From the NCBI RefSeq assembly GCF_000302455.1, contig NZ_AMPO01000001.1:353014-385013 (forward strand): a DNA stretch of 32,000 nt, written 5' to 3'. Of the stretch, positions 11,938 to 13,358 are shown one piece after another. The notes beneath the pieces were generated by a model. That model worked only from the letters and a program-made list of their open reading frames with translations, was not told the origin of the DNA and searched no databases. A program made the translations under genes and the position numbers. The DNA is from Methanobacterium formicicum DSM 3637. Its GTDB lineage: Archaea; Methanobacteriota; Methanobacteria; Methanobacteriales; Methanobacteriaceae. The stretch's first letter is position 1. Each line of letters begins with the position of its first letter.

Positions 11938-11979
11938 TATAACTTATAACTTATACTTAATAACTTATAATTTATAAGA
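11938..11979. repeat. Six contiguous 7-bp units: TATAACT TATAACT TATACTT AATAACT TATAATT TATAAGA
   Basis: Read directly, with unit starts at 11938, 11945, 11952, 11959, 11966 and 11973. The array lies 81-122 bp upstream of the parA-like ATG. Confidence 0.85.
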
Positions 11980-12059
11980 AAACAGCCCATACATACAGTC
12001 TGTATCAAAAAATTTAAAAAAAATACAATTGGATTTTAAAAAATAATTGGAGAACCATT

Positions 12060-12848
12060 ATGGCAGAAGTAATATCTATACTCAATCAGAAGGGTGGTTG
12101 CGGTAAAACCACCACTGCGGTAAACCTTTCAGCGGCATTAGCACTTTTAGGGAAAAAAGTTCTGGTAATTGACATGGACCCTCAGGCCAATGCCACCACT
12201 GCATTTGGGGTGGAGAAAAACGAGGAAAATTCAGTTTACAGGGTTTTAACTGGTGAACAAACCGTAGGGGAGGCAATTGTTTCCACTGAAATTTCCCAAT
12301 TGGACCTTCTTCCCAGTCATATCTCACTCAGCGGGGCTGAAATAGAGCTCAGTAAAGATATTGGATTCCCATTCATATTAAAAGAATCCATGGATGGTCT
12401 TCTGGATGATTATGATTATGTTCTGCTGGATGTGCCTCCTTCTCTTGGTATTCTAACCATAAATGCCCTGGTAGCTGCAGATAGTGTTATCATACCTATC
12501 CAGGCCGAATTTTATGCCCTGGAGGGAATGGCTGATCTTTTAGATGCCATGAAACTGGTTGAAAGTCGTCTAAACAGTCCTTCGCCAATAAAGGGAATAT
12601 TAATCACCCTCTATGATTCTCGCACTCGACTGGGTAGGGATGTTTACCAGAATGTAAAACAGTACTTCGGTGATACTGAATACATTTTTAAAACCACTAT
12701 CCCTCGGAATGTTAAACTGGCCGAAGCCCCCAGCCATGGGAAGCCCTGTATTATTTATGATGATGAATGTATAGGAACTGAAGCCTACAATGACCTTGCC
12801 AAGGAATTTTTATCACTAAATGAATCTGATGGGGAGGGCAATAAATGA
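12060..12848 (+). CDS. parA: ParA/Soj-type partition ATPase (deviant Walker A)
   Basis: Deviant Walker A NQKGGCGKTTTAVNL, followed by VLVIDMDPQANAT, LLDVPPSLG and TIPRNVKLAEAPSHGKP. By eye it is collinear with bacterial chromosomal Soj. There is no N-terminal HTH extension. GGAGA RBS upstream. Confidence 0.9.
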   Translation: MAEVISILNQKGGCGKTTTAVNLSAALALLGKKVLVIDMDPQANATTAFGVEKNEENSVYRVLTGEQTVGEAIVSTEISQLDLLPSHISLSGAEIELSKDIGFPFILKESMDGLLDDYDYVLLDVPPSLGILTINALVAADSVIIPIQAEFYALEGMADLLDAMKLVESRLNSPSPIKGILITLYDSRTRLGRDVYQNVKQYFGDTEYIFKTTIPRNVKLAEAPSHGKPCIIYDDECIGTEAYNDLAKEFLSLNESDGEGNK

Positions 12849-13273
12849 CTGCTAAAAAAGGGGAGAGTGCACTTGGAAGAGGCTTAGATGCCCTTATTCG
12901 GAAAGAAAAGCCTAAAAATGAGGATAAACTGAAAGAGGGTAAGAGTGAAAAAATAGCACCTGTAAAGAAGAAAACTCCTGAAAAAACAGTTGCCAGAAAT
13001 TCTTCAAAGGTTAAAAGCCCTCAAAAAACCAAAAAACAACCCAGAAAGGCCAAGGAAGATCCGGATAGAGTCATCATTGATGGAGTGGTGTTGGATGTGC
13101 GTAAAAACCCTCGTATATCCCTATGGTCAGCCAGATCCGCGGCCGTTTTAAGATTTTTAAAGAATACTAAACCTGCATTCAGTATAAGTAAAGAAGCATC
13201 TGCCCTTATTGAAGAGGCAGTGCAACAGAAATATCCTGAGATCTGGGAAATGTTTGATAACGAAGATTTTTAG
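12845..13273 (+). CDS. Small basic ParA-partner candidate: ParB-like N-terminal peptide, Lys-rich linker and a putative ribbon-helix-helix C-terminus
   Basis: Its ATG overlaps the parA stop (ATGA at 12845-12848). Residues 9-17, LGRGLDALI, match the ParB/Spo0J N-terminal motif. No ParB/Srx box or HTH was seen. The C-terminal pattern PRISLWS-ARSAAVLRFLKNT-SISKEASALIEEAVQQ looks like strand-helix-helix. Confidence 0.7.
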   Translation: MTAKKGESALGRGLDALIRKEKPKNEDKLKEGKSEKIAPVKKKTPEKTVARNSSKVKSPQKTKKQPRKAKEDPDRVIIDGVVLDVRKNPRISLWSARSAAVLRFLKNTKPAFSISKEASALIEEAVQQKYPEIWEMFDNEDF

Positions 13274-13274
13274 A

Positions 13275-13358
13275 ATTTATAAGTTATACGGGGGTGGTTG
13301 GTTATAAGTTATAATTAATTATAAGTTAGAACTTATTAGTTATAACTTATAACTTCAT
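13275..13358. repeat. Heptad array of mixed orientation immediately after the stop of the small parA-partner gene
   Basis: Inverse units are ATTTATA AGTTATA (13275-13288), GGTTATA AGTTATA (13300-13313) and AATTATA AGTTAGA (13317-13330). Forward units are TATAACT TATAACT (13341-13354). ATAAGTT-AG-AACTTAT forms an inverted repeat at 13321-13336. Confidence 0.85.

What the first reader, a model, noticed from the sequence alone, without database searches (positions are those of the whole stretch)
11938..13358. Contiguous TATAACT heptad arrays bracket the parA cassette in direct and inverted orientation
Six back-to-back 7-bp units sit 81-122 bp upstream of parA (11938-11979). Eight more sit just after the partner gene stop (13275-13358): six in inverse orientation (AGTTATA type) and then two forward, with an ATAAGTT-AG-AACTTAT inverted repeat at the switch point. 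Elsewhere in the window I found the heptad only as isolated single hits inside genes.

From established knowledge, RHH centromere-binding proteins such as omega of the inc18 plasmid pSM19035 bind arrays of contiguous 7-bp heptads in direct and inverted arrangements. Type Ib centromeres often double as the operon operator.

I infer that these arrays are candidate centromere or operator sites for the small partner protein.
Basis: partly seen in the sequence, partly recalled or inferred. Interest (0 to 1): 0.7.

Follow-up and report, generated by a model that had tools for sequence, protein, structure and literature searches.

The report
Candidate SegB centromere repeats in a methanogen
The 7-bp repeats around this methanogen's parA cassette are conserved arrays of TTATAA plus one C or G, most likely the unreported docking sites of its SegB-type chromosome-segregation protein, and probably also an on/off switch for the cassette.

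Summary
The unit is the palindromic hexamer TTATAA plus one spacer base, C or G in 92% of cases, at a strict 7-bp period.

The 142-aa partner is a homolog of archaeal SegB, whose solved structure is ribbon-helix-helix (profile E=2e-9 to PDB 7DUV). The ATPase is a bacterial Soj-type ParA.

In 80 related Methanobacteriaceae loci (1.45 Mb), 264 of 276 arrays sit at three conserved places: between a TATA-like box and the segA ribosome-binding site, just after the segB stop, and in front of a ferredoxin-hisB operon 6-10 kb away. Composition-preserving simulations give 3 clusters against 268 observed.

The published Sulfolobus SegB site, TCTAGA-S-TCTAGA, has the same layout with a different hexamer.

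My best reading is that these are the Methanobacteriaceae segS sites, acting as centromere and operator. This is a new variant of a known kind. Binding by SegB and the genome-wide distribution remain untested.

The parts
11929..11936 (+). TATA-like box (TTTAAATA) abutting the first repeat unit. Candidate segAB promoter element.
   Evidence: Read from the sequence. In most relatives an AAATATTTATA element abuts the first hexamer in the same way. No transcription start data; this is inference.
11937..11977 (.). Upstream array (segS-up): six contiguous units, TTATAAC TTATAAC TTATACT TAATAAC TTATAAT TTATAA(G).
   Evidence: An array is present upstream of segA in 74 of 75 related loci, with a median of 23 bp between array end and ATG. 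In this window a ~60-bp insertion increases that distance to 82 bp.
12060..12848 (+). segA: Soj-type ParA Walker ATPase, 262 aa.
   Evidence: Pfam AAA_31 6e-65 and CbiA 2e-26. PDB: T. thermophilus Soj 1wcv 2e-59, H. pylori Soj 6iub 3e-58, 8ray 5e-65, but S. solfataricus SegA 7dut only 9.5e-20.
12845..13273 (+). segB homolog, 142 aa. Invariant N-terminal peptide ESALG(R/K)GLDALIR, a variable lysine-rich linker, and a nearly invariant C-terminal domain of ~65 aa (NPRISLWSA...).
   Evidence: No Pfam or NCBIfam family. Profile of 39 homologs hits PDB SegB 7duv at E=2.3e-9 and 7dv2 at 6e-7. 543 homologs, all labelled examples from Methanobacteriaceae. Alignment. AlphaFold2 model has pLDDT 75-80 in the C-terminal domain. 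The gene overlaps segA by 4 bp.
13270..13289 (.). Downstream array, part a: TTAGAAT TTATAAG TTATAC, overlapping the segB stop codon.
   Evidence: In relatives the array starts a median of 17 bp after the segB stop and often overlaps it.
13302..13352 (.). Downstream array, part b: TTATAAG TTATAAT, a 3-bp slip, then TTATAAG TTAGAAC TTATTAG TTATAAC TTATAA. The G-spacer units followed by C-spacer units make a long dyad.
   Evidence: It lies between convergent genes (segB + and radical-SAM 13638-14762 -), so no promoter is expected. As RNA, 13290-13365 folds at -24 kcal/mol with z=-5.05 and is followed by T6 at 13362-13367.
23836..23862 (.). Third-locus proximal array: TTATAAC TTATAAG TTATAAC TTATCA, 11 bp from the ATG of a 61-aa 2x[4Fe-4S] ferredoxin gene (23641-23824, - strand). 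The ferredoxin gene overlaps hisB (23056-23643, - strand).
   Evidence: Arrays are found upstream of fdx in 44 of 47 related loci. The proximal array typically ends as TTATAAgTTATAAGGAG, abutting the ribosome-binding site.
23921..23940 (.). Third-locus distal array: TAATTAA TTATAAC TTATAA, ~37 bp past the stop of the FMN-reductase gene (23978-24574, - strand). TTATAACTTATAACTTCAT is shared with 13340-13358.
   Evidence: A distal array ~90-115 bp from the fdx ATG recurs in relatives.

Best explanation
The arrays are the cognate DNA sites (segS) of the SegB homolog encoded at 12845-13273. Together with the Soj-type ATPase at 12060-12848 they make up a SegAB-type chromosome partition module of a Methanobacteriaceae archaeon.

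Proposed mechanism:
- Each palindromic TTATAA hexamer is bound by one symmetric RHH dimer, with its beta-ribbon in the major groove.
- The fixed 7-bp register and the C/G spacer let neighbouring dimers pack cooperatively into a wrapped nucleoprotein complex. This is what is seen for omega on heptads and for SegB on its S1 site.
- At segA the array lies between a TATA-like box and the ribosome-binding site. Occupancy should therefore repress segAB (autoregulation). The same layout in front of fdx-hisB would couple that operon to SegB.
- The arrays behind segB lie between convergent genes. Together with the promoter arrays they form a cluster of high-occupancy sites spread over ~12 kb, which serves as the centromere-like cargo.
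- The invariant N-terminal peptide of DNA-bound SegB then stimulates the nucleoid-bound ATPase.

Shown here: the repeat architecture, its statistical excess, its positional conservation in 80 species, and SegB homology.

Inferred: that SegB is the binder, one dimer per hexamer, repression, and the centromere function.
For: (1) Excess and periodicity. There are 268 period-7 clusters in 1.45 Mb of related loci, against 3.0 +/- 1.6 in simulations that preserve local composition. Other periods give 0-7, and other AT-rich palindromic hexamers give 1-9. In the window there are 6 clusters against 0.02 expected.

(2) Position. 264 of 276 arrays (96%) lie upstream of segA, just after segB, or upstream of fdx. 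They are present in 74/75, 72/79 and 44/47 testable loci respectively. Flanking intergenic DNA is not conserved.

(3) Linkage to segAB. The arrays stay with segAB in the two loci where synteny is broken, L077 and L080.

(4) Constraint on the unit. The position weights are T.93 T.89 A.88 T.86 A.90 A.92. The spacer between perfect hexamers is C 199, G 94, A 14, T 12, in DNA of 36% GC.

(5) The protein is a SegB homolog. SegB is an RHH site-specific binder whose ChIP-seq motif is TCTAGA-S-TCTAGA (PMC12284271; PMC8682754). That is the same palindromic-hexamer, S-spacer, 7-bp layout. In S. solfataricus the site also abuts the segA ATG.

(6) Contact residues. Two of the three base-contacting residues of S. 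solfataricus SegB differ here (K52 to R90, K75 to S113; W56 = W94). The phosphate contacts S77 and R78 are kept as S115 and K116 (alignment, contacts from PMC8682754). This fits a changed hexamer read by the same binding mode.

(7) The strand NPRISLWSA is invariant across 39 homologs, matching the invariant hexamer.

(8) Precedent. pSM19035 omega binds 7-10 contiguous heptads that overlap three promoters. It needs at least 4 contiguous units to activate its ParA (PMC9499535).
Against: - No binding data exist for any Methanobacteriaceae SegB.
- The rest of the genome could not be scanned. Exclusivity to the segAB neighbourhood is shown only within +/-10 kb in 80 species. The metagenome scan was uninformative.
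- The link between protein and site is correlative, because the beta-strand is invariant in the family. There are only two comparison points, Sulfolobales and Methanobacteriaceae.
- The structure model is a monomer of modest confidence. Its Foldseek match to SegB is not significant (E=0.14).
- Promoter positions are inferred from TATA-like sequences only.
- A centromere role cannot be separated from pure transcriptional control by sequence analysis.
- The locus is not next to any recognisable Cdc6/Orc1 gene within the window.
Confidence: 0.7

Rival explanations
1. Operator only. SegB, or the arrays' binder, is just a transcriptional repressor of segAB and fdx-hisB. The arrays have no role as a centromere, and the post-segB arrays act as auxiliary or looping sites.
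For: Two of the three conserved positions have a promoter-like layout of TATA-like box, array, ribosome-binding site, ATG. RHH proteins are typically repressors. No replication-origin marker is nearby.
Against: The most consistently rich arrays also lie between convergent genes, where there is nothing to repress. The partner is a Soj-type ParA and the SegB N-terminal peptide is invariant, which implies a working ATPase-adaptor pair. In Sulfolobus and in pSM19035 the same sites serve both roles (PMC12284271, PMC9499535).
Confidence: 0.17
2. The post-segB array is chiefly a transcription terminator: an AU-rich hairpin followed by a T-run. It resembles the other arrays only because palindromic repeats fold.
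For: 13290-13365 folds at -24 kcal/mol with z=-5.05 and is followed by T6. In relatives the two blocks often form a dyad followed by T5-T9. Median z is -2.1, and 27% of loci fall below -3.
Against: It is the sequence TTATAA-S that is conserved, not merely the pairing. A hairpin alone would allow free covariation. The same units occur upstream of segA and fdx, where folding is unremarkable (z=-0.8 and -0.2). As far as I know, archaeal termination needs only oligo-T. This role is compatible with SegB binding and could be an added function.
Confidence: 0.06
3. The arrays are bound by a different, unidentified DNA-binding protein or by the basal machinery (TBP/TFB on reiterated TATA-like elements). 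Their association with segAB would then be coincidental synteny.
For: TTATAA is TATA-like, and two sites are at promoters. There are no binding data.
Against: A strict 7-bp register with a C/G spacer is not a TATA-box property. The arrays follow segAB when the flanking genes change. The layout matches the experimentally determined SegB motif of Sulfolobus (PMC12284271). One site lies between convergent genes.
Confidence: 0.06
4. Chance or generic AT-rich low complexity.
For: The genome is AT-rich (~40% GC). Unrelated organisms carry TTATAAC or TTATAAG microsatellites.
Against: 268 clusters observed against 3 simulated. The signal is period-specific and hexamer-specific, and its position is conserved across 80 species.
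Confidence: 0.01

Closest known systems
SegAB/segS chromosome segregation system of Sulfolobales (S. solfataricus SSO0034/SSO0035; S. acidocaldarius)
   Same: - The partner protein is homologous to SegB in its C-terminal RHH domain (E=2e-9).
- The gene order is ATPase then adaptor, with overlapping genes.
- The DNA site is built from a palindromic hexamer repeated at 7 bp with a C/G spacer (TCTAGA-S-TCTAGA; PMC12284271). The S. acidocaldarius segS is three heptads (PMC12139799).
- One site abuts the segA start.
- Further sites cluster around the locus.
- The N-terminal tail activates the ATPase in Sulfolobus (PMC8682754).
   Different: - The hexamer is TTATAA, not TCTAGA, and the Sulfolobus motif is absent here.
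- The arrays are long (3-9 units), nearly perfect and intergenic. About 83% of Sulfolobus sites are intragenic.
- The ATPase is much closer to bacterial Soj (1e-59) than to S. solfataricus SegA (1e-20).
- The N-terminal peptide is ESALG(R/K)GLDALIR rather than MSELDFLLKKK.
- No SegC-like gene was noticed nearby.
pSM19035 (inc18) delta/omega/parS type Ib plasmid partition system
   Same: - An RHH adaptor pairs with a small ParA.
- The sites are arrays of contiguous 7-bp units, with one dimer per unit.
- Several arrays overlap promoters, so centromere and operator coincide.
- At least 4 contiguous units are needed for ATPase activation (PMC9499535). The arrays here typically have 4-6.
   Different: - Omega heptads (WATCACW) are non-palindromic, so their orientation matters. 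Here the core is palindromic and 'orientation' is only the spacer base.
- No sequence similarity to omega was detected (no Pfam hit).
- This system is chromosomal and archaeal.
TP228 ParF/ParG/parH
   Same: The RHH adaptor has a flexible N-terminal tail that stimulates the ATPase. The SegB RHH superposes on ParG at 0.7 A rmsd (PMC8682754). Repeat arrays upstream of the operon act as both centromere and operator.
   Different: The repeat sequence and length differ. ParF is a distant ParA. TP228 is a plasmid.
Bacterial chromosomal ParABS (Soj/Spo0J/parS)
   Same: The ATPase is a close Soj homolog. The adaptor's N-terminus carries a short hydrophobic motif with a central R/K at residues 9-18. [quoted passage not shown] From memory, the motif resembles LG(R/K)GLxALL.
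   Different: There is no ParB HTH or CTPase domain. No parS-like 16-mer is present. The resemblance of the N-terminal motif could not be confirmed by any library search.

Membership tests
Archaeal SegAB/segS | Adaptor homologous to the SegB C-terminal RHH domain, with signature (K/R)(D/N)P(K/R)I(G/T)(V/L)WS(Y/P)(P/E) | tested here: met
   Profile against PDB SegB 7duv gives E=2.3e-9. The sequence here is K-N-P-R-I-S-L-W-S-A-R, which matches 8 of 11 signature positions (signature from PMC12139799).
Archaeal SegAB/segS | segB lies immediately downstream of a ParA-like ATPase gene, in one operon | tested here: met
   The genes overlap by 4 bp (12845-12848). The same order is seen in nearly all of the 80 related loci (L059 is cut before segA).
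Archaeal SegAB/segS | ATPase of the Sulfolobus SegA type (about 220 aa) | tested here: not met
   The protein is 262 aa. Bacterial Soj scores 1e-58 to 1e-65, while S. solfataricus SegA 7dut scores only 9.5e-20.
Archaeal SegAB/segS | Sites with the Sulfolobus consensus TCTAGA-S-TCTAGA near segAB | tested here: not met
   3 hits at 3 mismatches against 5.5 expected, none near segAB. The layout (palindromic hexamer, S spacer, 7-bp register, site next to segA) is met with TTATAA instead. Positive control in S. solfataricus: 27 hits against 8 expected.
Archaeal SegAB/segS | Conserved N-terminal SegA-activating peptide (MSELDFLL...KK in Sulfolobales) | tested here: inconclusive
   A different invariant peptide is present. 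A profile of it does not hit full-length S. solfataricus SegB at E<=10. The two share only LDxL(L/I)(K/R)K, judged by eye.
Archaeal SegAB/segS | [quoted passage not shown] | not testable with these tools
   Needs EMSA or footprinting and ATPase assays.
Type Ib RHH partition systems (omega/ParG type) | RHH fold of the adaptor | tested here: inconclusive
Type Ib RHH partition systems (omega/ParG type) | Arrays of at least 4 contiguous short repeats that overlap promoters | tested here: met
   Arrays have 4-6 contiguous units. A TATA-like box abuts the array and the ribosome-binding site follows. Promoter overlap is inferred; no transcription start data are available.
Type Ib RHH partition systems (omega/ParG type) | Non-palindromic heptad whose orientation is meaningful (WATCACW) | tested here: not met
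   The core TTATAA is its own reverse complement. Only the spacer differs between the two 'orientations'.
Bacterial ParABS | ParB with HTH and CTP-binding N-terminal domain, plus a parS 16-mer | tested here: not met
   No ParBc or ParB family hit. There are 0 parS-like matches at up to 3 mismatches.
Bacterial ParABS | N-terminal ParA-binding motif: hydrophobic residues around a central R/K | tested here: inconclusive
   ALG(R/K)GLDALI at residues 9-18 fits the description in PMC12462528. No PDB, NCBIfam or Pfam search linked it to ParB.

The most novel reading that the evidence does not exclude
Methanobacteriaceae run a hybrid partition machine. It would combine a bacterial Soj-type ATPase with a SegB RHH domain carrying a ParB-like ParA-activating peptide. 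It would read a lineage-specific centromere code, (TTATAA-S)n, laid out as a ~12-kb cluster of long arrays. One of those arrays wires a ferredoxin-hisB operon to the segregation protein. If so, 'palindromic hexamer + S at 7 bp' would be the general SegB recognition grammar, with the hexamer re-specified by two base-contacting residues (K52R, K75S). This would be the first defined centromere of a euryarchaeal chromosome.
Probability: 0.35. Interest if true: 0.75.

Novelty: new variant of a known kind. Interest (0 to 1): 0.6.

Why it matters
SegAB is the only chromosome partition system characterised in archaea, and all binding-site data come from Sulfolobales. The 2025 ChIP-seq study searched a euryarchaeon (Thermococcus sibiricus) with the Sulfolobus motif. 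It found no sites near segAB and concluded that quite different sites must exist there (PMC12284271).

I found no paper in the searchable library that describes sites for the Methanobacteriales homologs. The arrays give a precise, testable candidate. It comes with a defined consensus, three conserved positions in about 80 species, and a structural rationale for the changed specificity.

They also suggest that the adaptor and ATPase were mixed from archaeal and bacterial parts. Practically, the arrays are a ready marker for annotating segS, and for correcting the 'AAA family ATPase' label that NCBI gives these SegB homologs.

Tried and rejected
- Metagenome-wide scan for TTATAASTTATAASTTATAA. 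Nine of the 120 contigs were recognisable Methanobacteriaceae: eight carried the array beside segA and one (L190) in the IlvD-ThrRS spacer. The scan says nothing about genome-wide distribution.
- Linking the N-terminal peptide to ParB. I tried phmmer and a profile against PDB, NCBIfam and Pfam at E<=10, and a literature string search. There were no hits, so the resemblance rests on the description in PMC12462528 and on memory.
- Sulfolobus SegB motif and bacterial parS in the window. Both are absent.
- Rfam and tRNA scans of the window. Nothing was found, so no RNA gene explains the arrays.
- RNA hairpin or terminator reading. It is plausible only for the post-segB array and is kept as a minor, non-exclusive rival.
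- Replication-origin link. There is no Cdc6/Orc1 gene in the window, and the IlvD-ThrRS spacer holds only a weak period-8 pair.
- Search with the S. solfataricus SegB sequence. It returned only Sulfolobales, so Thermococcales could not serve as a third comparison point.
- A control with segB-less relatives was considered but dropped.
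Full report
**Observation**

The window is AT-rich (~40% GC). Every labelled homolog of the partner protein comes from Methanobacterium or Methanobacteriaceae.

- TATAACT: 18 occurrences against 4.5 expected.
- The tandem 14-mer with up to 2 mismatches: 21 against 0.49.
- TTATAASTTATAA with up to 1 mismatch: 13 against 0.10.

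Re-phasing shows that the unit is the palindromic hexamer TTATAA followed by one base. In that register the upstream array at 11937-11977 reads TTATAAC TTATAAC TTATACT TAATAAC TTATAAT TTATAAG.

- The downstream set is not contiguous. It has three units at 13270-13289 overlapping the stop codon, a 12-bp G-rich gap, two units, a 3-bp slip, and then five units ending at 13352.
- The heptad is not otherwise confined to single intragenic hits. Arrays also lie at 23836-23862 and 23921-23940.

The signal is specific to a 7-bp period: six clusters, against 0-1 at periods 6 and 8-11. Among all 64 palindromic hexamers it is specific to TTATAA.

**The genes**

The gene at 12060-12848 encodes a 262-aa ParA (AAA_31 6e-65).
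- It is far closer to bacterial Soj than to the Sulfolobus SegA. The scores are 1wcv 2e-59, 6iub 3e-58 and 8ray 5e-65, against 7dut at 9.5e-20.

The 142-aa partner overlaps it by 4 bp and matches no Pfam or NCBIfam model.
- It has 543 homologs.
- Their alignment shows three parts: an invariant N-terminal peptide ESALG(R/K)GLDALIR, a variable lysine-rich linker, and an almost invariant C-terminal domain of ~65 residues containing NPRISLWSA.
- A profile of this family hits the solved S. solfataricus SegB structures 7DUV and 7DV2 at E=2.3e-9 and 6e-7.

SegB is a ribbon-helix-helix, site-specific centromere-binding protein whose N-terminal tail activates SegA (PMC8682754). Methanobacteriales homologs have been listed in the literature, but their N-termini were called lineage-specific and of unknown function. 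No DNA sites were given for them (PMC12139799).

The AlphaFold2 monomer model is confident only in the C-terminal domain. Its Foldseek top hit is SegB, but the match is not significant.

**Comparative evidence**

A scan of species-representative genomes returned 80 loci from Methanobacteriaceae (1.45 Mb).
- Triple-unit arrays at period 7 form 268 clusters. Periods 6, 8 and 9 give 2, 0 and 7.
- Simulations that preserve local composition give 3.0 +/- 1.6 clusters. Other AT-rich palindromic hexamers give 1-9.
- Of 276 phased arrays, 264 fall at three places:
  - Upstream of segA: 83 arrays, with a median of 23 bp to the ATG.
  - Immediately after the segB stop: 92 arrays, with a median of 17 bp and often overlapping the stop.
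  - Upstream of a small ferredoxin gene that overlaps hisB: 89 arrays, one set 10-19 bp and another ~90-115 bp from the ATG.
- These sites are occupied in 74/75, 72/79 and 44/47 testable loci.
- The few other arrays lie mostly in the IlvD-ThrRS spacer or as additional arrays close to segAB.
- Where synteny is broken (L077, L080), the arrays stay with segAB.

The unit is tightly constrained. Position weights are T.93 T.89 A.88 T.86 A.90 A.92. The spacer between perfect hexamers is C or G in 293 of 319 cases, although the DNA is 36% GC.

The flanking intergenic sequence is not alignable between distant loci, whereas the arrays persist.

**Layout at promoters**

In most relatives the segA-proximal array is preceded directly by AAATATTTATA. 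It is followed within ~10-25 bp by GGAGG and the ATG. In the window the equivalent box is TTTAAATA at 11929-11936, and a ~60-bp insertion separates the array from the ribosome-binding site.

The fdx-proximal array typically ends as TTATAAgTTATAAGGAG.

Both arrangements put the array across the expected initiation region of an archaeal promoter. That is the classic position for a repressor. This step is inference, since there are no transcription start data.

The post-segB arrays lie between convergent genes, so a promoter role is unlikely there.
- They often form a dyad followed by a T-run.
- In the window the fold is -24 kcal/mol with z=-5.05, followed by T6. Across loci the median z is -2.1.
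- A contribution to termination is therefore possible. The conserved feature, however, is the TTATAA-S sequence itself, not just base pairing.

**Comparison with known systems**

The ChIP-seq motif of S. solfataricus SegB is TCTAGA-S-TCTAGA, and the S. acidocaldarius motif is a close variant (PMC12284271). An independent study describes the S. acidocaldarius segS as three heptads (PMC12139799). The Methanobacteriaceae arrays therefore share the grammar of palindromic hexamer, C/G spacer and 7-bp register, with a different hexamer.

As a positive control, the published motif is enriched in the S. solfataricus segAB neighbourhood: 27 hits against 8 expected. One site abuts the segA ATG, and some sites form in-phase 7-bp runs. 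That motif is absent from the window. This explains why motif-transfer searches fail in euryarchaea. That study found no sites near segAB in Thermococcus and predicted that quite different sites exist there.

Mapping the published DNA contacts onto the alignment gives the following (contacts from PMC8682754):
- Base contacts: K52 to R90, W56 = W94, K75 to S113.
- Phosphate contacts: S77 and R78 correspond to S115 and K116.

This is consistent with the same binding mode reading a different hexamer.

Omega binds 7-10 contiguous heptads, one dimer per heptad. Its arrays overlap three promoters, and at least 4 contiguous units are needed to activate the ParA. The difference is that omega heptads are non-palindromic.

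**The N-terminal peptide**

ALG(R/K)GLDALI at residues 9-18 fits the published description of the ParA-binding motif of bacterial ParB. That motif consists of hydrophobic residues around a single central R or K near the N-terminus (PMC12462528). From memory it also resembles LG(R/K)GLxALL.

Paired with a Soj-like ATPase, this suggests a hybrid system. However, none of my searches connected the peptide to ParB. It shares only LDxL(L/I)(K/R)K with the Sulfolobales SegB N-terminus MSELDFLLKKK. I treat this as a lead, not a result.

**Verdict**

These are the candidate segS sites of a Methanobacteriaceae SegAB system, and they most likely serve as both centromere and operator.

What remains unproven:
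- Binding by SegB.
- The genome-wide distribution.
- The separation of segregation from regulatory roles.

I rate this a new variant of a known kind, of moderate to good interest. It supplies the missing cis-element for euryarchaeal SegAB, and within the literature I could search it has not been described.

Noticed in passing
window 22908-23039: Tandem 23/45-bp repeat (TTTAGATTTACCCAATGATTC, 4-5 copies) in the spacer between a TMEM175-like K+ channel gene (22255-22893, -) and hisB (23056-23643, -). It may be another regulator's site array.
   Followed up: no
window 18068-18185: A 21-bp repeat, 5.7 copies (TAAAAAACCTGAGGTAACCCC), straddling the 3' end of the O-antigen-polymerase-like gene 16914-18092.
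   Followed up: no
window 13475-13541: Short direct repeats (AAAAAAATCCAGTAAATT x2.3 and AGTATATTTAAA x2) between the post-segB arrays and the 3' end of the radical-SAM/HhH gene.
   Followed up: no
window 11990-12002: Perfect 13-bp palindrome ATACAG-T-CTGTAT inside a ~60-bp segment between the upstream array and the segA ribosome-binding site. Relatives L003-L010 lack this segment.
   Followed up: partly
window 12845-13273 and homologs P0006, P0024, P0026, P0049, P0056: NCBI names many of these SegB homologs 'AAA family ATPase'. They have no ATPase domain, so the label looks like a misannotation, perhaps carried over from the neighbouring ParA gene.
   Followed up: partly
L048 5847-5923; L065 7128-7147; L070 7109-7128; L190 ~1566: An occasional fourth array site in the divergent IlvD-ThrRS spacer, ~2-4 kb upstream of segA. 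The window has only a weak period-8 pair there, at 8130-8151.
   Followed up: partly
L001 and L023: Both contigs belong to one MAG (isolate 8_bin.87) but encode different SegB proteins, 95% and 55% identical to the window's. This is either a mixed bin or two segAB copies.
   Followed up: no
L201 8433-8459 (S. solfataricus): The Sulfolobus SegB motif also occurs as in-phase 7-bp runs of 3-4 degenerate units inside genes near segAB (TCTTGACTTTAGACTCCAGACTCTTCA). Short arrays therefore exist there too.
   Followed up: partly
L081-L200 (metagenome contigs): Pure TTATAAC or TTATAAG heptamer microsatellites occur in many unrelated, often GC-richer contigs. The bare repeat is therefore not diagnostic outside Methanobacteriaceae.
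   Followed up: partly
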